A DNA stretch of 64,000 nucleotides from an uncultured Erysipelotrichaceae bacterium (GCA_902801795.1 CADCJQ010000010.1:2358-66357), one strand, 5' to 3'. Positions 3,334 to 40,549 are shown, numbered from the stretch's first letter. Numbers and translations: made by a program. Notes: generated by a model from the letters alone, not told the origin.

Positions 3334-3750
3334 TTATTTCTTCTTATCTTTTTTAGTTCCGTATTTACTACGTCCTTGTTTTCTATCCTTAACTCCTGCT
3401 GTATCAAGTGTTCCACGAATAATATGATAACGTACACCGATTAAATCAGGTACACGTCCACCTCTTATCATTACAACACTATGTTCTTGTAAGTTATGTC
3501 CTTCTCCTGGAATATAACAAGTTACTTCCAATCCATTACTTAACTTAACACGAGCATATTTACGAAGTGCAGAGTTAGGCTTCTTTGGAGTCATAGTTCC
3601 AACACGCGTACAAACACCACGTTTTTGAGGTGAATTAATTTTTGTTTGTTTTTTTCTAACATTATTAATTCCAACTAACAATACTGGTGATTTTGGTTTT
3701 CTAACTTTACTACCACGTCTTTTTTTAACTAATTGATTAATTGTAGGCAT
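3334..3750 (-). CDS. rpsL: 30S ribosomal protein S12
   Basis: [46 protein letters not shown]. Confidence 0.99.
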
Positions 3751-3842
3751 AAGTTCTCCTTCCTAACACATATCCTGGTGTGTCATTTTTCTTTATAAAT
3801 TTAAGGCTTAGATACACTAAACCCAAATTCACAAACGTTATT

Positions 3843-3871
3843 AATATACACTACTTCCCCTGTCTTGTCAA
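3843..3871 (-). promoter_or_regulatory. Sigma-A promoter of str operon
   Basis: Minus strand TTGACA-17 bp-TATATT with TG upstream of the -10. Confidence 0.8.
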
Positions 3872-4183
3872 TATTTTTTATGTATTTTCAGAAAAATATT
3901 ACATCACTTCATATTATTAATTCATATACAATTAAATATGTATCATCTAGCTTTCTTTTACTACATTCATTTTCTTTTCATCCTTTACTACAATAAAAAA
4001 TATAGTGTGTTTGTATTCTGGTATTTCAGAATTTACACACTATATTATACAAGGTCCTTTTGTTTTTATATTTCATCACTGTGCCTACACTTCGTCCCTT
4101 GTTCTTACGAATTTTTTCCTCATGCGCATTTTTGTAAAAAAATGCTTGATTCAAGATTTCAAGATGGAAACGCTGGCGAGCTA

Positions 4184-5563: not shown

Positions 5564-5844
5564 TTTATCTCTCTTTCCTTAATTTAAGAATTTTAAATAA
5601 TTAATTATTTCTTACGTTCCATCTAATTTAATATTCATCATACTACCGTTGCTTACAATAATACTATCATATTTTTTCTTCTTTATCAATTATAAATAAG
5701 TATTTTATTAAAAACTTTACACATAATATTCTGGTTCAATTATTTATCAATTATTTATAAATGTATTCTAACACATCGCTCGTATTATTGCAACTATAAA
5801 TTTTATTTTTTTATTTAATGAAACAATAGTTTTAGGTGAAAATA

Positions 5845-6303
5845 ATGAAAAATAAATTATTAGATATGAGAGAATATTTTAATGTAAATCAAGAAACAAT
5901 TGGTGAAATAGTAGGTGTTACAAAAACAAGTATTTCTAAATGGGAAACGGGAAAAGAAACAATACCATTAAAGCATCTTAATACTTTATCAAATTATTAT
6001 AATGTTAGTATAGATTATTTAGTAGGATTATCAAAGATAAAGAATTATGAAAATTATATAAAAATTAATGAATTAAATAAAATAGAAATTGGTAAAAGAA
6101 TCAAATTATTCCGTAATGAAAATGAATTATCTTTACGAGAACTTGCTAATATTCTTAATACTACTTCATCAACCATATCAGCATATGAAACTGGTAAAAC
6201 ATTAATACTAACTTCTTTTGCCTATCAAATATGTAAAGAATATCATATATCGCTTGACTATTTATGCGGAAAATTGAAAAATAAAATGCATTATGAAAAA
6301 TAA
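5845..6303 (+). CDS. XRE-family transcriptional regulator with two HTH domains
   Basis: Two HTH_3-like repeats (QETIGEIVGVTKTSISKWETG; LRELANILNTTSSTISAYETG); start after AGGTG RBS; divergent from 5563. Confidence 0.9.
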   Translation: MKNKLLDMREYFNVNQETIGEIVGVTKTSISKWETGKETIPLKHLNTLSNYYNVSIDYLVGLSKIKNYENYIKINELNKIEIGKRIKLFRNENELSLRELANILNTTSSTISAYETGKTLILTSFAYQICKEYHISLDYLCGKLKNKMHYEK

Positions 6304-6307
6304 AATT

Positions 6308-6868
6308 TCATAACACATTTTGTTTTTTTAATACCTTTTCATTGTCTAAATTAATAATAGGAATATCTAAACGATATTTATCTAATAAATAAGATACTAC
6401 TTTTAAATATTCTTCAATATATTCATCAGGATAATAATATTGCATTCTACTTAAAGATAACATAATTCCTCTTAGATAATTAAGAGAAACTTCATCCTTT
6501 ACTTGTACTTCATCAATTAAATCACTATATCTTCCCTTTATCCCATAATAATGCATCATATCAATAGAACCTAAAGTATTATAATCTACATATATATAAT
6601 CTGGTTCAATAACTTTTAATTCTTTGTCAAATAATAGCGATAACCCTCGTTTTACATAAAGATTATAAGCTGAATTCTTAGGATGATTTTTTTCTAAATC
6701 ACAAAGTGATATATAATCCATTCCGTTAAATAAAGCCTCTTCTTCGCTTAATCCTAATTTTCTTCTTGATAATAAAGCACCATTTTTTAAAATTTCTTCT
6801 AATTTCGTAATATCTAACAACATTAAATTATCTGTTTTATTAAATGAATGTGCATAATATTTTAACAT
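6308..6868 (-). CDS. Hypothetical protein, possible ADP-ribosyltransferase fold
   Basis: 186 aa; YAH...LEEILKNGALLSR...YISL...DEVQV pattern; RBS GGGGG. Confidence 0.55.
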   Translation of the reverse strand: MLKYYAHSFNKTDNLMLLDITKLEEILKNGALLSRRKLGLSEEEALFNGMDYISLCDLEKNHPKNSAYNLYVKRGLSLLFDKELKVIEPDYIYVDYNTLGSIDMMHYYGIKGRYSDLIDEVQVKDEVSLNYLRGIMLSLSRMQYYYPDEYIEEYLKVVSYLLDKYRLDIPIINLDNEKVLKKQNVL

Positions 6869-9215: not shown

Positions 9216-9992
9216 TTATCCTAACGCCACATCTAAAATCATCATAATTACAAAACCTAATGACAAACCAATAATTCCAAGATTAGAGTGTTTACCATTT
9301 TGGGATGAAGGAATTAATTCCTCTGCAACTACATAAATCATGGCACCAGCAGCAAATGATAATAAATAAGGAAGTATCGGAACAGCTAAATTTGTCAATA
9401 GTATCGTAATAATCGCTCCAATTGGTTCAACAATTCCCGATAATGTTCCATACAAAAATGACTTGCTTTTAGAAATTCCTTCTTCTTTTAATGGCATTGA
9501 TATAATTGCTCCTTCAGGAAAGTTTTGAATAGCAATACCGATTGCCAAGGCTAAAGCACTAGAAAAAGTAATATTTTTAGTACTTACCATTGCTCCGGCA
9601 AAAGTAACACCAACAGCCATTCCTTCTGGTATATTATGTAAGGTAACCGCTAAAACCATCATCGTTGTTTTAGCAAGTTTTGACTTCATTCCTTCTGGTT
9701 CTTTTTCTTTAACATGTAAATGCGGTATAACATTATCTAATATTAATAGAAAAATAATCCCTAATAAAAATCCCACACTCGCTGGTAACCAAGAAATCGT
9801 ATTACTTTCTTTAGCCATCTCAATCGAGGGAATTAATAAAGACCAAACAGAGGCTGCTATCATAACCCCACTAGCAAAACCTAATAATATTTTATCTAAT
9901 TTTTCATTTATTTTATTTTTCATTAAGAAAACCATCGCTGAACCTAACATTGTTCCTATAAATGGAATCATAATTCCTACAAATAATTTCAT
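9216..9992 (-). CDS. ZIP-family divalent metal (zinc) transporter
   Basis: HNIPEGMAVG and QNFPEG motifs, multiple TM helices; start chosen after AGGTG RBS. Confidence 0.93.
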   Translation of the reverse strand: MKLFVGIMIPFIGTMLGSAMVFLMKNKINEKLDKILLGFASGVMIAASVWSLLIPSIEMAKESNTISWLPASVGFLLGIIFLLILDNVIPHLHVKEKEPEGMKSKLAKTTMMVLAVTLHNIPEGMAVGVTFAGAMVSTKNITFSSALALAIGIAIQNFPEGAIISMPLKEEGISKSKSFLYGTLSGIVEPIGAIITILLTNLAVPILPYLLSFAAGAMIYVVAEELIPSSQNGKHSNLGIIGLSLGFVIMMILDVALG

Positions 9993-10042
9993 TTTCTTCA
10001 CCTAATATTATTATAAAACAAAAAATAATAGAAAAAAAGCCT

Positions 10043-11848
10043 CTAGTCACTATTTCTAGACGCTTTCTTTCTATCATCAGCATTAAGTATTTTCTTACGT
10101 AATCTAAAACTAAGAGGTGTAACCTCAACTAATTCATCTTTATTAATATAATCAAGACATGTTTCAAGACTCATTACACGAGGACGTTTTAAAACAACAG
10201 TATGATCACTACCTGATGCTCTAGTATTAGTAAGATTCTTTCCTTTAACAACATTTATAGCAATATCATTATCATGATTATGTTCACCAACAATCATACC
10301 TTCATATACTTCATCACCTGGTTCAATAAACATTGTTCCACGTTCTTCAAGTTGTCCTAAGGCATAAGCTGTTGCTTTTCCATTTTCCATTGATACTAAA
10401 ACACCTAATTTACGTTCACCAACCATAGTACCAGCAATTTTACGATATTCTTTAAAAGCATGATTCATAATACCATAACCTTTAGTTAAAGTCATAAATT
10501 CCGTAGTAAATCCAATTAATCCACGAGATGGAATAACATAAGTAAGTCTTACTTGATTTTCATGGTTAACCATATTCTCTAATATTGCTTCACGCATACC
10601 AAGATTTTCAATAACACCACCAACATAATCACTAGGTATATCCATTTGTAAATCTTCAAATGGTTCACATTTAATACCATCAATTTCTTTAATAATTACG
10701 GTTGGTTTAGAAACTTGAAGTTCAAATCCTTCTCTTCGCATATTTTCAATTAAAATAGATAAATGAAGTTCTCCACGACCTGATACAATAAAACTTTCTT
10801 GATCATATGGTACAACGCGTAAACTTACATCACGTTCACATTCTTTCATTAATCTTTCTTCAATTTTACGAACTGTTAAAAGTTTACCTTCACGTCCGGC
10901 AAAAGGACTAGTGTTAACTCCAAAAGTCATTTGAAGGGTTGGTTCATCAATACGTAATTTTTCTAAGGCTTCTTCATGACCTATTTCACAAACGGTTTCA
11001 CCAACATTAATATCAGGAAGTCCTGCAATGGCAATAATATCTCCCGCATGCGCTTCATTTATTTCAATTCTTTTTAGTCCTAAATAACCAAACATTTTCT
11101 GAATACGAAATTGTTTAATACTACCATCTAAACGTACACAAGAAGCCATCTGACCAACTTTAATATTACCACGCTTTACAACACCAATTCCAATACGACC
11201 TACGAAATCATTATAATCTAATAATGCTGGTTGAAATTGTAATGTTCCTTCACTTACTTTAGGCGCAGGAATATTTTGAATAATTGAATCTAAAATATAA
11301 TCCATAGTAGGTTCTTGTGTTGATAATTCAGGACTTAAACTTGATGTACCATTAATAGCACTAGTATAAACAATAGGAAAATCAAGTTGATCAATATCCG
11401 CTCCTAAATCAATAAATAAATCCATAACTTCATCAATAACTTCTTTTGGACGTGCAGACTCTTTATCAATTTTATTAACAACAACAATCGGTGTAACATG
11501 AGCCGCTAAAGCTTTCTTTAATACAAATCTTGTTTGAGGCATTGTTCCTTCATAGGCATCAACTACTAATAGAACACCGTCTACCATATTCATAATACGT
11601 TCAACTTCACCACCAAAATCTGCATGTCCTGGAGTATCTAAAATATTAATACGATATCCTTTATAATTAATCGCCGTTGGTTTCGCAAGAATCGTTATTC
11701 CTCTTTCATGTTCAATATCATTAGAATCCATTGACCCTATTTCTTCATTTTCTCTAAATGTTCCACTTAACTCTAACATTTTATCAACTAATGTTGTTTT
11801 TCCATGGTCAACATGAGCGATAATTGCAATATTTCTTATATTTTCCAT
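10043..11848 (-). CDS. typA: Translational GTPase TypA/BipA
   Basis: [39 protein letters not shown]-terminal LVEVTP. Confidence 0.98.
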
Positions 11849-19440: not shown

Positions 19441-19556
19441 TTTATCACCTAATATAATTATACCAAATATTTCCTAAAATATCTAGGTATTAATAACACA
19501 CATTTACATTTATTTAGAATAATTTATATTAGATAACAAATAAAGGAGAGGATTAT

Positions 19557-19940
19557 ATGAATAATGAGAATTGTTTAGCCAATATTTTACGTGTAATAAA
19601 TGTCTTACAAAATAATGCTGAAGATAAGTGTGATACTAATAATAGTTGTACAAGACCATTTTTAGGTGATATCCCTAGTATTGTTTGTTTTAATACTAGA
19701 TTAGTTACCTTCTATCGTTGTGATAATACCCTTGTAACACTTCCATATACTTTTGAAGGACTAAGTGGAACAACAACTATTTTTCGTGTAGAAAATGTCA
19801 CAGATACTTCTGTTACAGTAAGATTAATTAGAGATAATACCGATGGTACATATACCAACACTAATACTTTTGCCACAATTAATTTAGGATGTATTTGTGC
19901 AATTCGTTGTATTGGAGACGTTAATCTTTTAAATGTCTAA
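19557..19940 (+). CDS. CotY/CotZ-like spore coat (crust) protein
   Basis: Cys-rich; CLANILRVINVLQ...NTRLVTFY...IFRVENV...INLGCICAIRC layout matches the CotY/CotZ family. Confidence 0.75.
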   Translation: MNNENCLANILRVINVLQNNAEDKCDTNNSCTRPFLGDIPSIVCFNTRLVTFYRCDNTLVTLPYTFEGLSGTTTIFRVENVTDTSVTVRLIRDNTDGTYTNTNTFATINLGCICAIRCIGDVNLLNV

Positions 19941-19953
19941 GAAAGGAGGATTT

Positions 19954-20346
19954 ATGAATAATAATTTAAATATAAGTGAAACACTTAATTTTATTTTAAC
20001 TCTACAAAAGAATGCATGTTGTAATAATGAAAACTGTACTGAAGGTTGTACTCGTCCTTTCTTAGGACCTACATCTACTTTAGTATGTTTTAATACAAGA
20101 CCGGTTACATTATTTACATGTTGTACAGGAACAAATTGGGTATTTCCATATGAAATAAATGGAACCGAAGGTACAAGTACTGTCTTTAGAGTAGAAAATG
20201 TTGAAGGTAATTGCGCTACTTTTAGAGTACTTATTCCTAATACTATTGGTGATGAAACAACATATACTTTAAGTAACTCATATTTTACAATTGATTTATC
20301 ATGCGTTCTAGCACTTCAATGCTTACCTGATGCTTATGTAATTTAA
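19954..20346 (+). CDS. CotY/CotZ-like spore coat (crust) protein, paralog
   Basis: NTRPVTLF...VFRVENVEGNCATFRVL...IDLSCVLALQC; start after AAGGAGG RBS. Confidence 0.75.
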   Translation: MNNNLNISETLNFILTLQKNACCNNENCTEGCTRPFLGPTSTLVCFNTRPVTLFTCCTGTNWVFPYEINGTEGTSTVFRVENVEGNCATFRVLIPNTIGDETTYTLSNSYFTIDLSCVLALQCLPDAYVI

Positions 20347-31412: not shown

Positions 31413-32513
31413 TTATTGTGGTATTTTTATTACTTGACCAACCATTAAATTATTTGATAAATTGTTATTTATCGCTACAATTTCAGGAATAGTTGTATTA
31501 TAGCGTCTGGCAATAGAATACAAGGTATCTCCTTTTTGTACTTGGTATGTTTGATACTGAGTTTCCGTCATATCTAATGGTATTTGAATAACCTGTCCTA
31601 TTGATAAATTATTACTTGTTAAGCCATTATATGCTTTAATCGAATCAACTTTAGTATTATAACGTCTAGCAATGGAATATAGTGTATCACCTGGCATTAC
31701 TTCATATACAACAAAATTTTCCTCAGTAACTGGTTTTATAGGTATTACTATTTGTTGTCCAACAGATAAGATATTACTTGATAGATTATTGGCATTAATA
31801 AGATCATCAATCGTAACTCCATAGGTATTAGCAATACGATATAAAGTATCACCTCTTTTTACTATATAAACGTTTTCATTAGGATTAACCTCATTTCTTG
31901 GTATTTTTAGTGTTTCTCCTACTGTTAAAATAGTTGTTGGTAGTCCATTATAATCAATTAAATCAAGAACACTTATATTAAAGCGATTAGCAATCGAATA
32001 AAGACTATCGCCATTTTGAACCGTATATATTTCATACTCATCTTGCATTTCACCTTTTGGAAGTTCTAGTATTTGTCCAACAAATAAATTATTACTCGTT
32101 AAATTATTTAATCTCTTTAATTCATTAACTGTTGTTCCATAACGACTTGCTATTGAATATAAAGTATCTCCCTTTTGTACCGTATAAGAATCTCCACTAG
32201 CAATTGCTCCTGGTTGAATATAAGGAACACCAATATATTCAGAGACCGCTTTTACAACACCTTCTGCATAGTTTTCAATATTATTTTTTAATTTTGTTTG
32301 ATCTCTTGGATTATCAATAAACCCATATTCAATTAATAAAGCAGTTGTATTAGGTGTTTCTCTCATTATATAGTAATAATCTTTTTTAGGATTTTCTGGT
32401 AAAACCCGTTGATATACTTTACGTTTAATTTGGCCACGTGCCCCTATTTCATTTAAAATATTGTTAGCAAGAGTAGCACTTGAACGTAATGGGTAGACTA
32501 CTTCGGCACCTTC
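31413..32513 (-). CDS. 3' part of interrupted N-acetylmuramoyl-L-alanine amidase (Amidase_3 C-half plus 5 LysM)
   Basis: Open frame from 32513: EGAEVVY...YYYIMRETP...LLIEYGFIDN, then five LysM repeats; the ORF track shows only 31413..32366. Confidence 0.92.
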   Translation of the reverse strand, partial: EGAEVVYPLRSSATLANNILNEIGARGQIKRKVYQRVLPENPKKDYYYIMRETPNTTALLIEYGFIDNPRDQTKLKNNIENYAEGVVKAVSEYIGVPYIQPGAIASGDSYTVQKGDTLYSIASRYGTTVNELKRLNNLTSNNLFVGQILELPKGEMQDEYEIYTVQNGDSLYSIANRFNISVLDLIDYNGLPTTILTVGETLKIPRNEVNPNENVYIVKRGDTLYRIANTYGVTIDDLINANNLSSNILSVGQQIVIPIKPVTEENFVVYEVMPGDTLYSIARRYNTKVDSIKAYNGLTSNNLSIGQVIQIPLDMTETQYQTYQVQKGDTLYSIARRYNTTIPEIVAINNNLSNNLMVGQVIKIPQ

Positions 32514-32543
32514 GCCACCTGGCGTATGTCAAAATGTGATTAA
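32506..32543 (-). repeat. attR junction of integrated element
   Basis: Minus strand ACATTTTGAC-ATAC-GCCA-GG-TGGC-GAAGGT; core GGTGGC at 32514..32519. Confidence 0.88.
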
Positions 32544-32861
32544 TTACTTATTATTTTCAAATTCTTCACGATATACTTTAAAATATCCATATTTATCAAT
32601 AAATTTTATATTATCAACAGATTCATTAATTTCAAAAAATTTCATTGCTACTTTTGTAAAATCTAAATAGCCATGATCTAAATAATTATTTAAATTATCT
32701 TTTAAATATTCAATCGAATCATCGCTTTCTCCTTCAGCAGTAACAAAATCTAAATTATTGAAACATGTCTTTTCTCTATTGTATTGTGCAATATAAGTAA
32801 ATTCAATTTTTATTGTTTCGTTTTTTACTTTTATATCTCTTATTGAAGTTATCTCGGCCAT
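32544..32861 (-). CDS. Hypothetical protein (element cargo)
   Basis: 105-aa ORF, AGGTGA RBS, abuts the upstream gene. Confidence 0.7.
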   Translation of the reverse strand: MAEITSIRDIKVKNETIKIEFTYIAQYNREKTCFNNLDFVTAEGESDDSIEYLKDNLNNYLDHGYLDFTKVAMKFFEINESVDNIKFIDKYGYFKVYREEFENNK

Positions 32862-33452
32862 TTAATCACCTACTTCATATCCATTTTTAATATCCAGTAT
32901 TAATCCTTTTAATAAAGCATTATTGTTTTTTATATTAAAATTACGATAATCATATTTAATAGTTCTTTCATAACCAGGTGTAAAATAATGCTCAGAGTAT
33001 CCTTTCTTATCAACATCTTCAACTATTTCTTTCAATTCAAAATCGCATAAATCATCTAACATGCCACGACCAGCACCACTAATAATATATGGATAATGCT
33101 TACCATTATATTTTTCCATTTCTCTAGCACCTAAATAAGTGATTTTAAATGTAGTTGTTGATCCAAAGTCATACTCCATAGTCATTTTATTATTTTCATC
33201 AAAATTCACATCACTTAACTTTGTTCTAACTGCATCTTTAAAATTAAAATCATCTAACTCCAATGGATCAATCATGCAATCATATCTATCTTTTCCATGC
33301 TCTATATCATACAAATGATACGCAAGTGAATCAAATGTAGCAAGAATAGTATATGCTAAATCTGCAACTGTTCTTCTATCAGTTATTTCTATCTTTCTCC
33401 AAATTTTGTCTTCCACCCCTTCTATTCCTACTTGAAATGTTAGTACTTTAGT
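32862..33452 (-). CDS. Plasmid pRiA4b ORF-3-like protein
   Basis: KIWRKIEI...TVADLAYTILATFD...HLY...YDFGSTT pattern; start MTKVLTF after GGAGGT. Confidence 0.75.
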   Translation of the reverse strand, partial: TKVLTFQVGIEGVEDKIWRKIEITDRRTVADLAYTILATFDSLAYHLYDIEHGKDRYDCMIDPLELDDFNFKDAVRTKLSDVNFDENNKMTMEYDFGSTTTFKITYLGAREMEKYNGKHYPYIISGAGRGMLDDLCDFELKEIVEDVDKKGYSEHYFTPGYERTIKYDYRNFNIKNNNALLKGLILDIKNGYEVGD

Positions 33453-33473
33453 CATAAATCTTACCTCCAATTA

Positions 33474-33908
33474 CTAAAACATGTCATAATATGTGCCATT
33501 GTCAAAAGCATCTATTTGCTCCAAATAATGATTCATATTATCTTTTATTTCTCTACACAATTTCTTATAATTATCTATTGTCACATATGCTTTTTCACTC
33601 ATACATTCATAAAATTTCTTAATACTAGCAGCAGTCCCTTTTAATGAATGTCTTGATGACCATAAACATTTTTCTATAAACCATCCATCTAAAAATCCAT
33701 TAACAAAATGCACTCCATCTTCCATTGTTTCTGCATCATAATAATTTAAATAATCATTAATATATAAACTTGCATTATTAACGTGTTTTCTAATTATTTT
33801 CTTTGTTAAGGATTTTTCAATTAACCAGTTTTCAAATTCTTGAAGAAATTTCTCATTTCTTTTATGATTTTCTTCTTCTTTTTTCTCCCAATCTTTATAA
33901 TCATTCAT
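33474..33908 (-). CDS. Integrase N-terminal SAM-like domain protein (no catalytic domain)
   Basis: FENWLIEKSLTKKIIRKHVNNASLY...AASIKKFYECM pattern; only 144 aa. Confidence 0.55.
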   Translation of the reverse strand: MNDYKDWEKKEEENHKRNEKFLQEFENWLIEKSLTKKIIRKHVNNASLYINDYLNYYDAETMEDGVHFVNGFLDGWFIEKCLWSSRHSLKGTAASIKKFYECMSEKAYVTIDNYKKLCREIKDNMNHYLEQIDAFDNGTYYDMF

Positions 33909-33919
33909 ACTTTACTCCC

Positions 33920-35119
33920 TTATTTTAGTTCTATATTTTCTAATGGTTCCCATTTAATATATTTGAATATTTTAGCATCGCTCATGTGAATAAATTCAGT
34001 TGGTTTATATTTTTTAAAATATCCTCGACATTCAATTGGTATGATATCATTTGGAACTATACCTATATAATCAATACCTTTAAAGGCATTCTTAATCATA
34101 TCTACATTATATATTTCTAATGGTATATTATTTTTATTAAGCACAATAAATATTTTAGCGATTTCAACTTTTCTTAAAATTCTACTTCCACTAAGCGAAA
34201 GATAATATCCATTATCATCATGTCCTACTTGTAAATTAACTCTAGCAAAGGAATGACCTCTAATAATCTCCCAAGGATGTCCACCAAACCTTGTATCATC
34301 ATTATACCATTTATCAAATTCTTCACTACTATTCTCATCAATTTTGCTTAATCCTTCATCCCTACCATCAGCATACTTTAAATATAAATCCTTATCGGTT
34401 AATTCTCCTATTTCATAACCAATATTTTTATATGCCAATCCAACACATTCAAAATACTTACCAGATGTCATATCTTTTATTCTATTAGTTGTCTTTTCTC
34501 TAGCATTTTCTATAAAGTAATTCATTTCTTCTTGTGATATTTCACTTAATAGTTCTTGCCTAGTATCAGGAAACAAATTCCAATATTCATTTCGTTTTAT
34601 TACACCAAACCTATTTTTATAAGAATAATTACTTGATATATAATCATTGTAAGTACCTTTTTCAAGTCTTTGAATACATTCTTTTACTTTATCTATAAGA
34701 AAATCTAATAATTCTTGTAGTTGATAATTTTCAAAATTAGTATTCTCACTATTCATATCAGCATATATTATATTTTTTGAATTAATTGATATCATACGAT
34801 AGTTTTTATACATAGATGAAGTCATTTTATACCAAATAATTTCGTCTGGATAGTCTTCATTAAATCTATTTTCAAATTCTTCATAACTATCAACTTCACC
34901 ATCTATCTTTAACTCTTCAAAGTTGCCGTATTCTTCTATATTGCCTTTTTCAGCACTAAAATATAATACTTTATATTCATCATCTGATAATGGTTTTATT
35001 TTATCAAGTAAAGCATACAAATTATTTATCTTTTCTTTTACTTTCGTATCGTAACTCTCCGGGTTATAATTTCTACTATCCAACACTTCTAATAAAAAAT
35101 CTAATTTTGGAGCGGTCAT
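33920..35119 (-). CDS. Hypothetical protein (element cargo)
   Basis: 399 aa; contains GRDEGL and GGHPWEIIRG blocks; no family recognised. Confidence 0.75.
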   Translation of the reverse strand: MTAPKLDFLLEVLDSRNYNPESYDTKVKEKINNLYALLDKIKPLSDDEYKVLYFSAEKGNIEEYGNFEELKIDGEVDSYEEFENRFNEDYPDEIIWYKMTSSMYKNYRMISINSKNIIYADMNSENTNFENYQLQELLDFLIDKVKECIQRLEKGTYNDYISSNYSYKNRFGVIKRNEYWNLFPDTRQELLSEISQEEMNYFIENAREKTTNRIKDMTSGKYFECVGLAYKNIGYEIGELTDKDLYLKYADGRDEGLSKIDENSSEEFDKWYNDDTRFGGHPWEIIRGHSFARVNLQVGHDDNGYYLSLSGSRILRKVEIAKIFIVLNKNNIPLEIYNVDMIKNAFKGIDYIGIVPNDIIPIECRGYFKKYKPTEFIHMSDAKIFKYIKWEPLENIELK

Positions 35120-35138
35120 TTCAAAGTCACCTCCCTAC

Positions 35139-35396
35139 TTATTTTGTTATATATTTACTGATTAATTTTTTTGCTAATTCTTCTCCTTTAGGCGTTAAGA
35201 AAACTGATTTCCCTTTGCTATAATATAAATAATTCTCATCGGTTAATTTATTAATAATACCAAAATCATATCCTTTCCAACAAGTTTTAATTTTTGCTGC
35301 TTTAGGCATATCATTTTCATCAGCTACATATCCATCTTCTTCCCATGATGATAAGTACATTAATAATAATGTTAATTCTTCAACAATTTTCTCCAT
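35139..35396 (-). CDS. Small winged-helix-like protein (DUF6429-like)
   Basis: ELTLLLMYLSSW...WKGYDF...KSVFLTPKGEELA. Confidence 0.6.
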   Translation of the reverse strand: MEKIVEELTLLLMYLSSWEEDGYVADENDMPKAAKIKTCWKGYDFGIINKLTDENYLYYSKGKSVFLTPKGEELAKKLISKYITK

Positions 35397-35474
35397 TTAC
35401 TTCTCCTTCCTATTTCTATTATTTTGCTTTATTTATAATATATTTTTCAATAACAATTCTCGTTCTATATTTTA

Positions 35475-36005
35475 TTACTTTAATAAATCAGCTAAATATA
35501 ATTCATCTTTATTGTGCTTCTTCAAATGTTTATAATCATTTAAATTTTGAATTAGCATATTAATTCTTTTGCCACCATAATACATTTCTAAAAACTCTCT
35601 TGTTTGATCATATCTTCGATTATTATATACTATATTTCTTTTAGCAAAAGTTTTTGGAGATTCTTTTGATTTTAAAAACTGCTTATATAATCCTTCATTA
35701 ATTATTATAAGAATTTCTAATTCAGGCAAAGTACAATATTTATAAATTCTATCTTTAGATACAATATCACTTAAATCTTTTGGAACTGTAAACTTTTCTC
35801 TTTGGGTATCACCTATTCTTAATACTTTTACTGGATTATTATAAACTCTGAGTTCTGATTTTATAGTTGGATTAGTGAGTTGCCTTGCATGAAATGGTTT
35901 TAATGATACCAAATCATTTTGTGTAAAAATTAACTTCTTTTGATTTAATAACATATTAATAATACATATTTCGTTTGGACCTTCACACAAAATTAAATAC
36001 TTCAT
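35475..36005 (-). CDS. TOPRIM-like (RloB-like) partner protein
   Basis: N-terminal LILCEGPNE, LRIGDT, PELEILII; overlaps the ATPase stop by 4 bp. Confidence 0.6.
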   Translation of the reverse strand: MKYLILCEGPNEICIINMLLNQKKLIFTQNDLVSLKPFHARQLTNPTIKSELRVYNNPVKVLRIGDTQREKFTVPKDLSDIVSKDRIYKYCTLPELEILIIINEGLYKQFLKSKESPKTFAKRNIVYNNRRYDQTREFLEMYYGGKRINMLIQNLNDYKHLKKHNKDELYLADLLK

Positions 36006-37138
36006 TTCATTAATTCCCTTTTAAAATCCATTAATGATTCATAGTTAACATTTGTATTAAATGCATTACTATAAAATTTCTTACTTTTAGATAACTCTGG
36101 TCTAAAATTATAATCTCTATATACGTTCTCCAAACGAATTTTTTTATCATATTTTGTAATATAAATATTATCACTTCTATTAAACAAATCTAAAAGTTCA
36201 CAATAATGTGTAGTAAATATTAAAGTTGCATTTTTTTTGTTAACACTTTTATCTTTATACAAATTAACAAGATTTTCAACTAAAGTTTTATGAAAATGAT
36301 TTTCTATTTCATCTATCACTAAGTCTGTACCATTTTTAAGTGAATAAACAACATAAGTAAATAGCCAAATACCCTTTGATGTTCCACTTGATAGCATACT
36401 ATATAATTCTTTGCCAGTCACCTGGATTTTACTTTTATCAGTATAATATATTAAGAACTTATCTTCATTAATCATTTCAATATTATCTAAATGTTCATCA
36501 AGCATTTTTAAAATTGATTCAATGATTGTATGATTATTATTAATCATTTTATATACATTGAAAACATTAGAATATAATCTATAAATCAAATCGTCACTTG
36601 ATGTATAAAAGCCTCTAATAGTAATTTCTTTCAAAACATCATATAAAATAGAAGTATCATCAGGTAAATCAGTTGTAATAGGTAATTCAATATACTTATT
36701 ATAGTCAAAGATTTGTTTTGCTAAAGTCTTATAATATGGTCTTTTATATAACTTTTCATTTTTAAAATTAACAGTGTTATTTAGCGGATTATCATCTATA
36801 ACTAAATCAGTAATATATCTATATAAACTCCCCTCGTGATAAAAAGTAATATCCAAATTAACATCATTATGCCACATTAAAAATAAATTTAAAGTATTCT
36901 TAACCTTAAAGAATGAAAATATATCATATACTAGAGCTAACAAATCAACTGCTGTTGTTTTTCCTGATGCATTTTTACCAATAATACCTAACGTAGTATA
37001 TACGAATAGATTTTCATCAATTTCATGAAGTTCAAACTCTTTATCATCTGCTGTTTTATTTGCTTCTGGTACAAAAGATATTGTAAAATTATCTTCACAC
37101 AATTTAAAATTATTAGCAACAACCCTCAAAAGTTTCAT
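36002..37138 (-). CDS. ABC-type AAA ATPase (AAA_21/RloA-like), putative defence
   Basis: Walker A GKNASGKT, signature-like LSSGT, Walker B LVIDEIENHFH, FTTH. Confidence 0.85.
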   Translation of the reverse strand: MKLLRVVANNFKLCEDNFTISFVPEANKTADDKEFELHEIDENLFVYTTLGIIGKNASGKTTAVDLLALVYDIFSFFKVKNTLNLFLMWHNDVNLDITFYHEGSLYRYITDLVIDDNPLNNTVNFKNEKLYKRPYYKTLAKQIFDYNKYIELPITTDLPDDTSILYDVLKEITIRGFYTSSDDLIYRLYSNVFNVYKMINNNHTIIESILKMLDEHLDNIEMINEDKFLIYYTDKSKIQVTGKELYSMLSSGTSKGIWLFTYVVYSLKNGTDLVIDEIENHFHKTLVENLVNLYKDKSVNKKNATLIFTTHYCELLDLFNRSDNIYITKYDKKIRLENVYRDYNFRPELSKSKKFYSNAFNTNVNYESLMDFKRELMK

Positions 37139-37266
37139 ATAAATTTCCTCCTCACATTAATTATATCACTAAAGTTTAAAAAAATACATTTTTTTTGTTT
37201 TTTTTAAAATATATTTGTCTATAATACACTATATCATTAAAAAAATCAATATTTTTTTATATTTTT

Positions 37267-37448
37267 AAATTAAGCACCAGTGGAGCACAAGTTCATTTTC
37301 AAATAAAACATAATGTATAACTTCTGTCCAACTGGAACAGAAGTTAATGCGGAAGTTAACTTTGTATCCAGTGGAGACTAAGTTGTTTTTTTCTGCACCG
37401 TTGGTTGAGAAGTTAATTATTAACTTCGAACCCAGTGGGAACAAAGTT
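37267..37448. repeat. Array of five 27-bp palindromic units
   Basis: AACTT-N4-NCCAGTGGN-N4-AAGTT-like units at 37267, 37319, 37358, 37388, 37422. Confidence 0.8.
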
Positions 37449-37451
37449 AAC

Positions 37452-39035
37452 TTAAATATTATTTAGTAATGAAAACTTATAAAATATTTCAATATTTTTG
37501 TCTTTATCAATTACTATTTTATCAATAATTGATTGTAATAATTCACGAGATGGATTATCAAGATTAATTAGTTCTTTCATTTTTTCCTCGTATTCTTTAA
37601 TTTTCTTATTAGAATTTATTTCTTTTTTACTTGAATTTTTTATTTCATCAAGTCTTTTTTTTGATTGATTTAATAAAATTTCAGTTTCTTTTGATAATCT
37701 TAAATAAGTGTTTTCTGAAATATTTCCTTTAAACTTATCATCATAGAGCATGTCAATTTTACTATTACATTCTTTAATTCGATTATTTAAATAATTTATT
37801 TCATCATTTATTCTTTTATCATTATTATTTTTATTATTTATTTCTGTTGCTAATTCTTTAATATTCATTTTATCTAAATAAATCTTACAAGTATTTTTAA
37901 TAACATCTAATAAAGCTATTTCCAGTTTATCATAAGGCATAAAATGCGGATAGCACAAGTGTCTTCGGGGATCTCTTGAATATTTATTACAATTAATAGT
38001 CCAGTAATTATGTTTTTTACGATATGTTATTGTTAGAGAATTTCCACACTCTTTGCAAAAAAGTAAGTTTTCGAATAGTCTTTTTTCTCTTTTATTATGT
38101 GTAATTTTTGTTCTTTTAACATTATTTCTTACTTTATCAAAAACTTCTTTACTAACTAATGCTTCATGCGTATTTTCTACAATTATCCAAGAATCTCTTT
38201 GCAAAACAATCTTCTTTTGTGATTTATATGATAATTTAGTTTGAACATTTTGAATCATATTACCAGTATACATTTCATTTTTTAATATCTTTTTAACTGA
38301 TGATACTGTCCAGACAGGATTAATTCTTTGTTTAGAATTATCTTTTTTCTTATATAAACTTGGTGTAGGATATTTATTATCATTAAGAAAACTTGCAATA
38401 TCACTAACACTAATTCCAGAACTAGCCATTTCAAATATCTTTTTTACAATAAAAGCTGTTTCTGGATTAGGAACTAAATGCCCTTTATCTTCTTTATCAC
38501 GCATATAACCAAAAGATGGTTCGCTACCAATAAACTTTCCTTGTTCTTTCTTATTTCTTAAAATAGAACGAATCTTCTTAGATGTATCTTTACTAGTCAT
38601 ATCGTTAAATAAAGCTTTAAAAGGTGCTATATCGTTATTAGCTGTTTCTAAAAAAGTATCAATTTGATCAAGTATCGAAATATATCGTACTTTTTTAGCT
38701 AAAAAATAATCTTCAACATAATAGCCACATCTAATATAGTCTCTTCCTAATCTTGATAAATCCTTAGTTATTACACAATTAACCTTACCACTTTCAATAT
38801 CACTAATTAATCTTTTAAAACCTGGTCTATTAAAATTAGTTCCAGTAAATCCATCATCGACATATTCATCGATAAAAGTAAATCCTTTTTTCTTAATATA
38901 ATCCATTAGTAAATTTCTTTGATTAATAATACTTTCGCTTTCTGATTCGTAACTTTTGTTTTTATCTGCTTCAGATAATCTTATATATGCTGCTACCCTA
39001 TAAAAACTTGGTAATTCTAATGTTTTGTTATACAC
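37452..39035 (-). CDS. Large serine recombinase
   Basis: AAYIRLS catalytic Ser, DDGFTG...RPGF, TKDLSRLGRD, recombinase domain, Zn ribbon (CKECG), coiled coil; GTG start after AAAGGAG. Confidence 0.96.
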   Translation of the reverse strand: MYNKTLELPSFYRVAAYIRLSEADKNKSYESESESIINQRNLLMDYIKKKGFTFIDEYVDDGFTGTNFNRPGFKRLISDIESGKVNCVITKDLSRLGRDYIRCGYYVEDYFLAKKVRYISILDQIDTFLETANNDIAPFKALFNDMTSKDTSKKIRSILRNKKEQGKFIGSEPSFGYMRDKEDKGHLVPNPETAFIVKKIFEMASSGISVSDIASFLNDNKYPTPSLYKKKDNSKQRINPVWTVSSVKKILKNEMYTGNMIQNVQTKLSYKSQKKIVLQRDSWIIVENTHEALVSKEVFDKVRNNVKRTKITHNKREKRLFENLLFCKECGNSLTITYRKKHNYWTINCNKYSRDPRRHLCYPHFMPYDKLEIALLDVIKNTCKIYLDKMNIKELATEINNKNNNDKRINDEINYLNNRIKECNSKIDMLYDDKFKGNISENTYLRLSKETEILLNQSKKRLDEIKNSSKKEINSNKKIKEYEEKMKELINLDNPSRELLQSIIDKIVIDKDKNIEIFYKFSLLNNI

Positions 39036-39109
39036 GGCTTAAACTCCTTTCTTTGTATAACATTTAAAGCCTAACATTATACTACAATTAATATAGGCTC
39101 AAGACAAGT

Positions 39110-39205
39110 CTACGACTTGAGTAACGCACACTTGACAAAATCGCTTACCAATTCATAAATAGTAAAACCATCATCTTCTTTAAAGGTTTCTTTTATATTA
39201 AACAT
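39110..39205 (-). CDS. 31-aa ORF upstream of recombinase (MFNIKETFKEDDGFTIYELVSDFVKCALLKS)
   Basis: GAGGTG RBS, hand translation; not in the ORF track. Confidence 0.55.
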   Translation of the reverse strand: MFNIKETFKEDDGFTIYELVSDFVKCALLKS

Positions 39206-39263
39206 ATTTCACCTCTTAAAAAATTTTATGATTATCCTTTTCATTTTATTTCAATCCTCCTCT

Positions 39264-39746
39264 TTAATTAAAATCTTTTAGTACATTATTTAGTTCTTGC
39301 TGTTCTTCGCGAGTTGGTATTTCTTTCTTTAAAATCTTTCCATTCCAATATTCATTACCCAAATCATCTTTATAATACTTATTATTTATATTACTTTTAT
39401 TATTATATTTAAACTTAGGTTGAATACTGGTATTATAGTTTTCTTTAATACTATTTAAACTTTTAATTAATACTTGTGAAATTCTTATAATTCGTTTATA
39501 ACTATTATTATTTTCCATATGGTTTTCTAAATTAATATAACTTAAAGAGGCTAAATGATTAATACTTTTAGATATTGTTTGTTTGCTATATCCATAAATA
39601 TTCATAAAATACTTATTAGTAGCCCAACAATATCCGGCTTTTTTGCACAATGAAATAATGTTCACCAATAATAACTTTTCTAAAGATGATATTCTTCTAT
39701 CACTTAATACTGATATTGGTATAAGCGGTTTTATATATTTTTCCAT
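39264..39746 (-). CDS. HTH replication-initiator-like protein (phage replisome-organizer N-domain)
   Basis: EKLLLVNIISL...GYCWATNKYF...SKQTISKSINHLASLSYI. Confidence 0.75.
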   Translation of the reverse strand: MEKYIKPLIPISVLSDRRISSLEKLLLVNIISLCKKAGYCWATNKYFMNIYGYSKQTISKSINHLASLSYINLENHMENNNSYKRIIRISQVLIKSLNSIKENYNTSIQPKFKYNNKSNINNKYYKDDLGNEYWNGKILKKEIPTREEQQELNNVLKDFN

Positions 39747-39988
39747 AGCATTCCAGTTATAAGGTAAATATATAAAATATATCTTTATAAAAGTGCACTT
39801 TTACTTTTCCCTAGGTATTATCATCTTATATCAAGTGTGCAAAAAAATTAAATGTGCAAATTTCAAAATTACTCTCATTTTTGTACTCCCACTAGTATAA
39901 AAAGTATTACATGGTGTCATAGAGTATCATATAGTGTTATAAAATATTATTAAATTTTCCGAAAAAAATTAAAAATTTTTTATTTTTT

Positions 39989-40096
39989 TTAATTTTTAGT
40001 AAAAAAGAGCATAAATATACACTCTTCATTATAATTATCTAAAAATGGTTCATAATGTTTCTTGTATTCATACTCACTTTTGTCATCTCTAATCAT
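39989..40096 (-). CDS. Possible 35-aa ORF (MIRDDKSEYEYKKHYEPFLDNYNEECIFMLFFTKN)
   Basis: GGAG RBS, hand translation. Confidence 0.35.
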   Translation of the reverse strand: MIRDDKSEYEYKKHYEPFLDNYNEECIFMLFFTKN

Positions 40097-40192
40097 AAAT
40101 AACTCCATAAATATAATCTAATTTAGTAATGTAACTTTTTTTCACAACATCCTCTCATCTATATATTAGGCTTTAAATGTTATATATTTTTT

Positions 40193-40225
40193 AGTTACAT
40201 TTTGACCAATGCCACCGCCGGCATT
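40193..40225 (-). repeat. attL junction of integrated element
   Basis: Minus strand AATGCCGGC-GG-TGGC-ATTG-GTCAAAATGT; core GGTGGC at 40211..40216. Confidence 0.88.
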
Positions 40226-40477
40226 AATGTGATTAGATAAGACTATTACATTAGGATCAGTTCCAAGACTTCGCATGGTATTTAATCTTTCATTTCTAGT
40301 TAATGTTTTATCTGTATCACGAGTAATAGTTACTGGTACACCTAATTCTTTAAAACGATTGTACATGTAATTAGCGGCTTGCAAAGTAAAGTCTTTTTCT
40401 CTTAAATTACCTGATACTGCTCCAGGGTCATTTCCTCCATGACCTGCATCAACTACTATTCGATATTTATCATTCAT
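40211..40477 (-). CDS. 5' part of interrupted N-acetylmuramoyl-L-alanine amidase
   Basis: MNDKYRIVVDAGHGGNDPGA...LREKDFTL...SNHINAGGG; 89 codons up to the att core. Confidence 0.92.
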
Positions 40478-40523
40478 AATTATTTTCACCCATAATAGTT
40501 TATGTAATGAAAATAAATTGTTG

Positions 40524-40549
40524 AAAAAAAGATGGTAAAAACCATCTTT
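40524..40549 (-). terminator. Terminator between fibre operon and amidase gene
   Basis: AAAGATGGT-TTTT-ACCATCTTT plus T tract. Confidence 0.8.

What the first reader, a model, noticed from the sequence alone, without database searches (positions are those of the whole stretch)
31413..40477. Skin-like excisable element splitting a cell-wall amidase-LysM gene, with att sites readable in the sequence
Seen: the amidase 5' half (40477..40211) ends at ...HINAGGG and the 3' half resumes at 32513 with EGAEVVY, 7,697 bp away. The junctions share GGTGGC. Joining the element ends gives a symmetric attP, ACATTTTGAC-ATAC-GCCA-[GG]-TGGC-ATTG-GTCAAAATGT, with 10-bp inverted arms each 8 bp from a central GG, the geometry expected for a large serine recombinase (37452..39035). 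The restored attB, AAT GCC GGC GGT GGC GAA GGT GCC, rebuilds a 455-aa Amidase_3 plus 5xLysM ORF with all Zn/catalytic residues (GHG, EK, NHIN, LIEYG). Known: serine-recombinase elements interrupt sporulation genes and excise developmentally (skin in sigK, SPbeta in spsM, and elements in spoVFB and gerE). Inference: this is a gene-intervening switch controlling a peptidoglycan amidase, a target I do not recall for such elements. A mother-cell-type -10 box (CATAAACT, 40497..40504) before the amidase and CotY/Z-like genes in the window fit a sporulation link.
Basis: partly seen in the sequence, partly recalled or inferred. Interest (0 to 1): 0.92.

Follow-up and report, generated by a model that had tools for sequence, protein, structure and literature searches.

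The report
Recombinase defence island splitting a sporulation amidase
A 7.7-kb mobile island with anti-phage genes and its own serine recombinase sits exactly inside a cell-wall amidase gene of an uncultured, probably spore-forming gut bacterium (order RF39), and sequence evidence suggests, without proving, that it is cut out in the spore mother cell to rebuild the gene.

Summary
The amidase is split after codon 89. GGTGGC is shared at both junctions, and the insert is 7,697 bp. Joining the halves gives a 455-aa Amidase_3 + 5xLysM ORF. The attP is symmetric around a central GG, and the large serine recombinase (LSR) is intact.

New evidence:
- **Host:** an RF39 MAG with Spo0A, SpoIVA and sigma-K/E-like genes.
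- **Sporulation link:** the amidase co-occurs with SpoIVA. Its only promoter space holds AC-N15-CATAAACTA, and CATAnnnTA recurs in 12 of 13 diverged orthologues.
- **Same site elsewhere:** related LSRs occupy the same codon in 31 other species. All 31 downstream halves are open frames.
- **Prevalence:** about half of 124 related genomes carry the split.
- **Regulatory layout:** every related element examined has a 27-36-aa ORF just upstream of the LSR, with a CATAnnnT mother-cell-type -10. Most LSRs have an extended sigma-A -10. This matches the C. difficile skin logic.

Caveats:
- LSRs 95-100% identical sit in amidases only 50-75% identical. The islands therefore move horizontally, and insertions may be recent.

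Verdict: a real element. It is probably (~0.6) a new gene-intervening element with an unpublished target. This scan has seen the pattern many times.

The parts
40211..40477 (-). Amidase 5' half: codons 1-89, with GHGG, Glu27 and the NHIN zinc-ligand His. The truncated frame runs on into the element to a stop at 40166.
40496..40521 (-). Putative sigma-K-type promoter of the amidase: AC (40521-40520), a 15-nt spacer, then CATAAACTA (40504-40496). It fills the ~45 nt between the upstream gene's terminator hairpin (~40524-40548) and the ribosome-binding site.
   Evidence: consensus from PMC3789822
40197..40216 (-). attL: shared core GGTGGC (40216-40211) followed by the element arm ATTG-GTCAAAATGT.
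32514..40210 (-). The 7,697-bp inserted element, counted with one copy of the GGTGGC core.
   Evidence: the same element is in independent assemblies L075 and L076
39264..39746 (-). 160-aa HTH_36 protein resembling the N-terminal domain of phage and plasmid replication initiators. It is part of the conserved core of this sub-family of elements.
39110..39205 (-). 31-aa ORF (MFNIKETFKEDDGFTIYELVSDFVKCALLKS), the candidate recombination directionality factor. A homologue sits immediately upstream of the LSR in all 30 related elements examined. It has its own ribosome-binding site and a CATAAAAT box at 39230-39223.
   Evidence: gene callers also called it in L075 and L076
37452..39035 (-). 527-aa large serine recombinase. 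A TATAAT box lies at 39081-39076. Most relatives have TGnTATAAT here.
37265..37450 (.). Array of about five ~27-bp palindromes (TTAACTT-N5-CCAGTGG-N5-AAGTTAA type) between the LSR stop codon and the cargo. Function unknown.
35475..37138 (-). Cargo: a 378-aa AbiLi-like AAA_21 ATPase (36002-37138) overlapping by 4 bp a 176-aa partner (35475-36005) that has no family match. Putative two-gene abortive-infection system.
32544..35396 (-). Further cargo: DUF6429 (35139-35396), 399-aa unknown (33920-35119), 144-aa unknown (33474-33908), PRiA4_ORF3 (32862-33470) and 105-aa unknown (32544-32861).
32514..32537 (-). attR: element arm ACATTTTGAC-ATAC-GCCA, then the core GGTGGC (32519-32514).
31413..32513 (-). 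Amidase 3' half: codons 90-455, with the catalytic Glu in LIEYGF and five LysM domains.

Best explanation
**What it is.** A horizontally mobile, non-phage island has integrated by LSR recombination at one GG dinucleotide. The site lies in the codons HINAGG|GEGAE of an Amidase_3-5xLysM gene. The island carries an LSR, a ~30-aa partner ORF, a replication-initiator-like protein and anti-phage cargo (here an AbiL-like pair). The host is an RF39 bacterium with a sporulation gene set. The amidase behaves as a late mother-cell (sigma-K-type) sporulation gene, plausibly for mother-cell wall lysis or spore-envelope work.

**Shown.**
- The insertion itself and its exact in-silico reversibility.
- Site specificity across more than 30 species.
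- The domain content of the element.
- The link between the amidase and the sporulation genotype.

**Inferred.**
- The LSR is made constitutively from a sigma-A-type promoter and alone catalyses only integration.
- The small ORF, which sits behind a sigma-E/K-type CATAnnnT box, is made only in the mother cell and acts as the directionality factor.
- attL x attR recombination then removes the island from the mother-cell chromosome and rebuilds the amidase gene.
- The forespore chromosome keeps the island.

This is the logic shown experimentally for C. difficile skin (CD1231 with CD1234) and for gin (GirC with GirX).
For: **Anatomy.** The split, the restored 455-aa ORF and the symmetric attP are confirmed.

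**Host.**
- Related loci come from RF39-type MAGs.
- Spo0A is present in the own genome and across its family.
- SpoIVA is present.
- An intact sigma-K-like gene (290 bits) and a sigma-E-like gene are present.
- CotZ-family genes lie in the window.
- RF39 is predicted to form spores (PMC10868615).

**Link between the amidase and sporulation.** All 20 genomes with the amidase have SpoIVA. Only 6 of 20 genomes without it do (Fisher p about 2e-6 by my arithmetic).

**Amidase promoter.**
- Only ~45 nt separate the upstream terminator from the ribosome-binding site, and they hold AC-N15-CATAAACTA.
- 12 of 13 diverged orthologues keep CATAnnnTA at that place, and 8 have AC 16 nt upstream.
- The background in this genome is 4.9% of ORFs for CATAnnnTA and 0.6% for the full motif.

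**Site specificity and gene integrity.**
- All 31 related LSR loci that retain downstream flank abut an amidase 3' half starting exactly at E/D-G-A-E.
- All 31 halves are open frames of 253-451 aa and keep the EYGF Glu.
- About half of 124 related genomes have the gene split at residues 84-96, almost without internal stops.
- A redundant 3' copy in G003 has decayed, with stops and a deletion.
- No second functional Amidase_3-LysM gene is present in this 71%-complete genome. The C18 paralogue lacks the catalytic motifs.

**Regulatory layout.**
- The small ORF sits upstream of the LSR in all 30 elements examined.
- It has CATA(A/G/C)nnT 8-14 nt before its ribosome-binding site in four otherwise unrelated upstream contexts.
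- Most LSRs have TGnTATAAT.
- pN/pS is 0.12-0.5 in the indel-free pairs.

**Precedent.** In C. difficile skin the LSR is sigma-A constitutive and the 72-aa directionality factor is sigma-E dependent. GirX is a 42-aa directionality factor.
Against: - **No direct evidence of excision.**
  - The own assembly holds only the attL and attR arms.
  - The restored 455-aa protein is absent from 15 billion public proteins.
  - The junction scan of metagenome contigs found only an unrelated intact gene.
- **Insertions may be recent.** LSR and amidase do not co-diverge. Intact gene halves are then weaker proof of selection than they look.
- **Some orphan copies are still open.** Orphan 5' halves in G006 and L077 remain open frames although an intact gene lies nearby.
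- **Promoter calls are motif matches in a 26% GC genome.**
  - The -35 of the small-ORF promoter could not be assigned consistently.
  - CATAAAAT also contains a passable sigma-A -10 (TAAAAT).
  - In this window the LSR has TAGTATAAT, not a canonical extended -10.
- **The directionality-factor role is inferred.** It rests on position, size and conservation only. The small ORF matches no family.
- **Identity of the amidase.** It is neither a CwlD equivalog (73 bits against a 221.55-bit cut-off) nor CwlC-like in its C-terminus.
Confidence: 0.6

Rival explanations
1. Passive landing site. The island is an ordinary LSR integrative element that uses a highly conserved stretch of an amidase gene as attB because that sequence exists in many hosts. 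Insertion simply inactivates a dispensable hydrolase. Any excision serves only transfer and is not tied to sporulation.
For: - Near-identical LSRs sit in very different host alleles, so the elements spread fast and insertions can be too young for decay.
- The cargo is defence genes plus a Rep-like gene, as in other mobile islands.
- Elements with LSRs at least 90% identical carry different cargo.
- Another active Amidase_3 gene exists in the genome at C29.
- Peptidoglycan hydrolases are often redundant (general knowledge; PMC10653849 is listed).
- An earlier agent read a sister element this way.
Against: - A mother-cell-type box is conserved before the small ORF in every related element examined, across unrelated upstream contexts.
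- The gene is lost together with sporulation, which argues that it has a sporulation role under selection.
- About half of the species carry the split, yet the halves show essentially no stops, while a redundant copy has decayed.
- A dead target would erode the attB that the elements depend on.
Confidence: 0.27
2. Regulated excision, but triggered by a cue other than sporulation, such as phage infection, DNA damage or stationary phase. The amidase would then be switched on as part of a lysis or defence response.
For: - SPbeta excises both on DNA damage and in sporulation.
- The cargo is abortive-infection-like.
- An operator-like palindrome array lies next to the LSR.
Against: - No repressor or SOS-type regulator was recognised in the element.
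- The conserved box before the small ORF is CATAnnnT, not a sigma-A promoter with an operator.
- The amidase promoter itself looks sigma-K type.
Confidence: 0.08
3. Assembly or binning artefact: a chimeric contig that joins an element to amidase fragments.
For: The genome is a 71%-complete MAG in 81 contigs.
Against: - The same element with the same attR, or with both junctions, occurs in independent Logan assemblies from other runs.
- The same architecture occurs in 31 other species.
- The junctions restore a frame that matches natural intact alleles.
Confidence: 0.02

Closest known systems
skin element of Clostridioides difficile (LSR CD1231 plus directionality factor CD1234, inserted in sigK; PMC5025042)
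   Same: - An LSR element lies inside a mother-cell gene.
- The recombinase sits behind a sigma-A-type promoter.
- A separate small gene behind a sigma-E-type promoter would confer direction and cell type.
- Exact excision restores the ORF.
   Different: - The target is a peptidoglycan amidase, not a sigma factor.
- The candidate factor is ~30 aa and unrelated in sequence to the 72-aa CD1234.
- There are no phage-like genes.
- The cargo is anti-phage defence.
- The element family moves between species and occupies about half of the related genomes.
- Excision is not demonstrated.
gin element in gerE of Bacillus cereus ATCC 10987 (GirC plus the 42-aa GirX; PMC5595907)
   Same: - A non-prophage gene-intervening element.
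- An LSR plus a very small partner protein with no known motif.
- A short shared core at the junctions.
   Different: - gin carries three recombinase genes and sits in a 225-bp regulator gene.
- Its rearrangement was shown in vivo and in vitro. Here nothing has been shown experimentally.
- The host clade and the target differ.
SPbeta in spsM of Bacillus subtilis (SprA and SprB; PMC4191935, PMC5499854)
   Same: An active mobile element that is both horizontally transmissible and developmentally excised, with direction set by a separately regulated small factor.
   Different: SPbeta is a 134-kb functional phage (size from my own knowledge, not checked here). This island is 7.7 kb, has no phage genes and has no relative in IMG/VR.
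Tn4451/Tn5397-type serine-recombinase mobilizable elements (TnpX, TndX)
   Same: - An LSR-driven integrative element of Firmicutes.
- TndX is among the closest annotated LSRs found (38.5% identity over 72% of the query).
   Different: - No mobilisation gene was recognised.
- The crossover dinucleotide is GG, not GA.
- The element has one fixed target inside a conserved coding motif.

Membership tests
Sporulation gene-intervening elements (skin, SPbeta, vfbin, vrin, gin) | The element interrupts the coding sequence of a gene expressed in the sporulating mother cell. | tested here: inconclusive
   - The interruption is certain.
- Mother-cell expression is inferred from AC-N15-CATAAACTA, which is conserved in orthologues.
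- It is also inferred from co-occurrence with SpoIVA.
- No expression data exist.
Sporulation gene-intervening elements (skin, SPbeta, vfbin, vrin, gin) | It encodes a large serine recombinase and has att sites whose recombination restores the ORF exactly. | tested here: met
   - The LSR domains are present.
- The joined junction gives a 455-aa ORF identical in register to natural intact alleles.
Sporulation gene-intervening elements (skin, SPbeta, vfbin, vrin, gin) | Excision occurs during sporulation, in the mother cell. | not testable with these tools
- The own assembly holds only the attL and attR arms.
- No attB or attP of this element was found in public contigs.
Sporulation gene-intervening elements (skin, SPbeta, vfbin, vrin, gin) | A separately regulated recombination directionality factor. 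| tested here: inconclusive
   - The candidate is a conserved 27-36-aa ORF with a CATAnnnT box, present in all 30 elements examined.
- It has no family match.
- Its function is untested.
Large serine recombinases | Resolvase catalytic domain, Recombinase domain and zinc ribbon. attP is an imperfect inverted repeat around a non-palindromic central dinucleotide. | tested here: met
   - Pfam gives PF00239, PF07508 and PF13408.
- attP has 10-bp arms plus GCCA/TGGC around GG.
- The arms differ in relatives but remain inverted.
CwlD (spore-cortex amidase, TIGR02883) | Score above the equivalog cut-off. | tested here: not met
   73.4 bits against a cut-off of 221.55.
CwlC (Bacillus mother-cell lysis amidase) | N-terminal Amidase_3, a C-terminal SPOR-type wall-binding repeat and sigma-K dependence. 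The CwlC architecture is recalled from my own knowledge. | tested here: not met
   - Amidase_3 is present, but the C-terminus is five LysM domains with no SPOR.
- The promoter is sigma-K-like.
- The gene may therefore work like CwlC, but it is not filed as CwlC.
AbiL / PARIS-type ATPase-plus-partner defence pairs | Both components recognisable. | tested here: inconclusive
   - The ATPase hits AbiLi at 4e-37 and AriA at 2e-16.
- The 176-aa partner hits nothing in Pfam, PADLOC, PHROGs or NCBIfam.
Prophage or phage remnant | Phage structural, lysis or packaging genes, or relatives among viral contigs. | tested here: not met
   - The only PHROG hits are to replication-initiator families, plus one marginal hit (E 0.0014) to a family of unknown function.
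- No LSR relative is found in IMG/VR.
- The best phage-record LSRs are below 40% identity.
Tn4451/Tn5397-type mobilizable elements | TnpX/TndX-like LSR with a GA crossover, plus a mobilisation gene or oriT. | tested here: not met
   - The LSR is only about 38% identical to TndX.
- The central dinucleotide is GG.
- No relaxase or Mob domain was found.

The most novel reading that the evidence does not exclude
In RF39 gut bacteria, genes needed only in the disposable mother cell may serve as lineage-wide docking bays for interchangeable anti-phage islands. Several LSR lineages would use them. The late amidase is one such gene, and apparently spoIVA is another.

Under this reading a ~30-aa factor driven by sigma-E or sigma-K triggers excision in the mother cell, with two effects:
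- It rebuilds the wall-lysing amidase.
- It frees a circle that carries its own Rep-like gene and a constitutively expressed integrase.

Mother-cell lysis would then release that circle to neighbours. Sporulation would be the dissemination step for defence islands that have no transfer genes of their own.
Probability: 0.2. Interest if true: 0.85.

Novelty: new member of a known kind. Interest (0 to 1): 0.6.

Why it matters
**Scope beyond published cases.** Gene-intervening elements are known from a handful of cultured Bacilli and Clostridia, in sigK, spoVFB, spoVR, spsM and gerE. If the developmental reading is right, the same switch operates in an uncultured, genome-reduced gut order. Its target there is a peptidoglycan amidase. 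About half of the species carry the split, and the cargo is anti-phage defence rather than phage remnants.

**Why it would matter biologically.** It would link sporulation, cell-wall lysis and the spread of the defence pan-genome.

**Possible tools.** It would add a family of compact LSR, ~30-aa factor and attB/attP sets. These could serve as recombination tools.

**If the passive reading is right.** The case still documents a very specific, widely shared LSR landing site.

**Caveat on novelty.** This scan has already met the same phenomenon in dozens of genomes. This window is one more instance, not a first sighting.

Tried and rejected
- **Junction scan of metagenome contigs.** One degenerate pattern covering attP, attB, attL and attR gave a single hit. 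It was an intact amidase of another species, so it said nothing about excision.
- **Own assembly.** A regex scan of the genome found only the attL and attR arms, with no attP or attB.
- **Exact look-up of the restored 455-aa protein.** It is absent from the collection.
  - The closest intact allele is 96% identical in protein.
  - Its locus is about 87-90% identical in DNA, so it comes from a related species, not the same strain.
- **Co-divergence of LSR and amidase.** This was meant to show long residence. It failed (r=0.06), and showed horizontal spread instead.
- **Contig L076.** It ends 45-50 bp beyond both att sites, in two samples. I considered this as a sign of mixed empty and occupied alleles. 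The overhang exceeds k-1=30, so different host backgrounds explain it equally well.
- **Rfam on the element.** No match.
- **Sigma-70 and terminator scan.** Uninformative in 26% GC DNA: 93 sites found against 82 expected.
- **Prophage reading.** Rejected.
- **CwlD identity.** Rejected.
- **A redundant intact copy in the same genome.** None found; the C18 paralogue is catalytically dead.
- **-35 element of the small-ORF promoter.** The spacing differs between sub-families, so it is left open.

Full report
**1. The observation**

- The amidase gene lies on the minus strand.
- From ATG 40477 it reads MNDKYRIVVDAGHGG...LSNHINAGGG. After GGTGGC (40216-40211) it runs into foreign sequence and stops (IGQNVTKKYITFKA*).
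- A second GGTGGC lies at 32519-32514. It is followed by GAAGGTGCCGAAGTAGTC = EGAEVV and an open frame to 31413.
- Joining 40477..40211 to 32513..31413 gives 1,368 nt and a 455-aa protein.
- Pfam scores a full-length Amidase_3 domain (residues 7-180) and five LysM domains.
- The zinc and catalytic motifs align with solved clostridial Amidase_3 structures.
- The insert is 7,697 bp.
- Its joined ends form ACATTTTGAC-ATAC-GCCA-GG-TGGC-ATTG-GTCAAAATGT, a perfect 10+4-bp inverted repeat around a non-palindromic GG.
That includes the CATAAACT box (40504-40497) and the presence of two CotZ-family ORFs elsewhere in the window.

**2. What the element carries**

All genes run in the amidase direction. 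From attL to attR they are:
- a 160-aa HTH_36 protein that matches replication-initiator families;
- a 31-aa ORF (39110-39205);
- a 527-aa LSR (37452-39035; Resolvase, Recombinase and zinc ribbon);
- an array of ~27-bp palindromes;
- an AbiLi-like AAA_21 ATPase coupled to a 176-aa partner with no family match;
- DUF6429, three proteins with no informative match, and a PRiA4_ORF3 protein.

There are no phage structural genes and no relaxase. IMG/VR holds no LSR relative. The nearest annotated LSRs, such as TndX, are below 40% identity.

**3. The host**

- The window is contig C10 of a 1.51-Mb MAG that is 71% complete and 26% GC.
- Related loci come from MAGs labelled uncultured Bacilli, Tenericutes or Mollicutes, Acholeplasma sp. 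CAG:878 and Candidatus Faecimonas. These are the gut order RF39.
- The genome encodes Spo0A, SpoIVA, an intact sigma-K-like sigma factor (290 bits) and a sigma-E-like one.
- A published genomic survey predicts that RF39 forms spores (PMC10868615).

**4. Is the amidase a sporulation gene?**

- **Phyletic pattern.**
  - In some searches, relatives that lack SpoIVA and have at best a weak Spo0A_C match (G001, G014) also lack the amidase.
  - In a direct test, all 20 genomes with the amidase have SpoIVA, against 6 of 20 without it (Fisher p about 2e-6 by my arithmetic).
- **Promoter.**
  - The upstream gene ends in a hairpin plus T-run at ~40548-40524.
  - The only space left before the ribosome-binding site reads AC-N15-CATAAACTA.
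  - Across 13 diverged orthologues the surrounding sequence is not conserved. Even so, 12 keep CATAnnnTA at the same distance from the ribosome-binding site, and 8 have AC exactly 16 nt upstream.
  - In this genome only 4.9% of 700 ORFs with a ribosome-binding site have CATAnnnTA in their upstream 78 nt. Only 0.6% have the full motif.
  - Published consensus: sigma-E and sigma-K share the -10. [quoted passage not shown]
- **Identity.** The protein is not a CwlD equivalog and has LysM domains where Bacillus CwlC has a SPOR repeat. I call it a sigma-K-type, mother-cell amidase of unknown exact role.

**5. Related elements**

- Within the genus and family, G004 and G017 carry elements at the same codon.
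  - Their LSRs are 58-60% identical to this one.
  - Their arms differ (TTACACAATGA.../...TCATTGTGTAA) but are again inverted repeats.
- A scan of one genome per species found 33 loci with LSRs 62-76% identical.
  - Of these, 31 retain downstream flank, and each abuts an amidase 3' half starting exactly at E/D-G-A-E.
  - All 31 halves are open frames of 253-451 aa and keep the catalytic EYGF.
- Other element types with unrelated ends use the same GGTGG (L024, L027-L029).
- In an even sample of 150 high-quality genomes of the order, plus the window's own genome, 124 have the gene.
  - By my hand count, about 59 are continuous across codon 89.
  - About 55-60 show only pieces that end or start at residues 84-96, almost always without internal stops.
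  - The row list was truncated, so these figures are approximate.
- The closest intact allele is 96% identical in protein and about 87-90% in DNA.
  - It has the same downstream NlpC/P60 and CinA genes.
  - Its junction reads AAT GCA GGA GGT GGC GAA GGT GCT. This confirms the predicted attB.

**6. A conserved regulatory layout**

- A 27-36-aa ORF lies immediately upstream of the LSR in all 30 elements examined. Its consensus is M-x-I-x-E-T-F-D-x-D-K-N-L-x-D-L-I-E-E-Y-L-K.
- It has a strong ribosome-binding site.
- pN/pS is 0.12-0.5 in the indel-free pairs.
- Independent gene callers also called it.
- A CATA(A/G/C)nnT box lies 8-14 nt before that ribosome-binding site in every element. This holds across four otherwise unrelated upstream contexts. 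In this window the box is CATAAAAT at 39230-39223.
- Between the small ORF and the LSR, most elements have TGnTATAAT. This window has TAGTATAAT at 39081-39076.
- This matches the wiring shown for C. difficile skin: the LSR is constitutive from a sigma-A promoter, and the small directionality factor is under sigma-E (PMC5025042).
- It also resembles GirC with the 42-aa GirX in gin (PMC5595907).
- The directionality-factor assignment is an inference. The -35 element could not be assigned, and CATAAAAT also contains a weak sigma-A -10.

**7. Evidence that cuts the other way**

- LSR and amidase do not co-diverge.
  - Among 30 loci the Mantel correlation is r=0.06 (p=0.22).
  - LSRs 95-100% identical sit in amidases 50-75% identical.
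- The islands are therefore exchanged between species on short time scales.
  - Their cargo varies: restriction-modification genes in relatives.
  - Elements whose LSRs are at least 90% identical to this one carry different modules.
- Many insertions may be too young for decay. The intact halves are then weaker evidence than their number suggests.
- One internal control supports selection. A redundant 3' copy next to a functional gene in G003 is already broken.
- The orphan 5' copies in G006 and L077 are mostly still open.
- No excision product of this element could be found or sought.

**8. Verdict**

- It is certain that an LSR-borne defence island has inserted at one GG of a conserved amidase motif. 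Its exact removal would rebuild the gene.
- The best explanation, at about 0.6, is a gene-intervening element of the skin/gin kind. It would be excised in the mother cell by the LSR plus the ~30-aa factor.
- The main rival, at about 0.27, is a passive landing site with no developmental role.
- No paper in the held library reports an amidase as such a target.
- This scan has already recorded the pattern in many genomes, and those notes reached similar, equally unproven conclusions.
- I rate it a new member of a known kind, with an interest score of 0.6.

Noticed in passing
G017:C3:65-433 with G017:C10:61-414 (L081, L080); G064:C9:69-437 with G064:C2:296065-296418 (L079, L078); also G012 and G050: spoIVA is split at about residue 120-124 (...PRMVK-x-PW | Y-N/D-E...IPFIEAAE) in four genomes from different genera. 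In G064 and G017, the two checked at sequence level, the foreign ends are identical. They carry inverted arms (GTGATACCC / GGGTATCAC) about 14-15 nt from a shared TGG. Contigs break about 60 nt into the insert. This looks like another serine-recombinase element in a second mother-cell gene, and spoIVA is not among the published targets.
   Followed up: partly
L026 (G003:C211) 3647-6615 and 500-1121: In G003 the amidase lacks its first ~12 codons, and a different 533-aa LSR ends 40 nt upstream. This is a second insertion site at the GHGG motif. Downstream, a window-type attR arm is followed by a duplicate 3' half that has stops and an internal deletion.
   Followed up: partly
L024 1603-1896 and 2631-2918; L025 2690-2852 and 5609-5803 (G006); L077 2001-2356: Extra copies of the amidase promoter plus 5' half occur, each ending at the same GG with a third type of foreign end (GAGTTYTCTTATAG...), while an intact amidase gene lies elsewhere. 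In L077 the two copies bracket alr, the dlt operon and acpS. How they arose is unexplained.
   Followed up: partly
window 37265-37450: About five ~27-bp palindromes of the form TTAACTT-N5-CCAGTGG-N5-AAGTTAA lie between the LSR stop codon and the AbiL-like operon. They are unrelated to the att arms.
   Followed up: partly
window 39036-39075 and the equivalent place in L030-L058: A conserved 5'-UTR motif (GCTT-N4-6-GTTATACA) lies between the LSR -10 box and its ribosome-binding site in essentially all related elements. It may be a regulatory site for LSR expression.
   Followed up: no
own genome C16:24025-25626 (outside the window): A second LSR (39% identical) is followed 140 nt downstream, on the same strand, by a 255-aa ORF whose frame is closed just upstream of its start. 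This may be another split gene. Three more distant LSR-like genes lie on C9, C74 and C3.
   Followed up: partly
own genome C18:13295-14431 in minus-strand numbering, about plus-strand 9743-10780: A 378-aa paralogue has a degenerate Amidase_3-like N-terminus and four nearly identical LysM repeats. It lacks GHGG and has IKYGS in place of IEYGF. It is probably a non-catalytic wall-binding protein.
   Followed up: partly
window ~19554-20247: Two adjacent CotZ-family (PF10612) ORFs score above the Pfam cut-off, consistent with a spore coat or exosporium in this reduced genome.
   Followed up: partly
L076 (Logan SRR21150964 contig, 7,421 bp): A sister element with an LSR at least 90% identical is assembled with only 45-50 bp of amidase on each side, identically in two samples. 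It has extra cargo (a 508-aa ORF and DUF7695). The contig ends suggest a graph branch just outside both att sites.
   Followed up: partly
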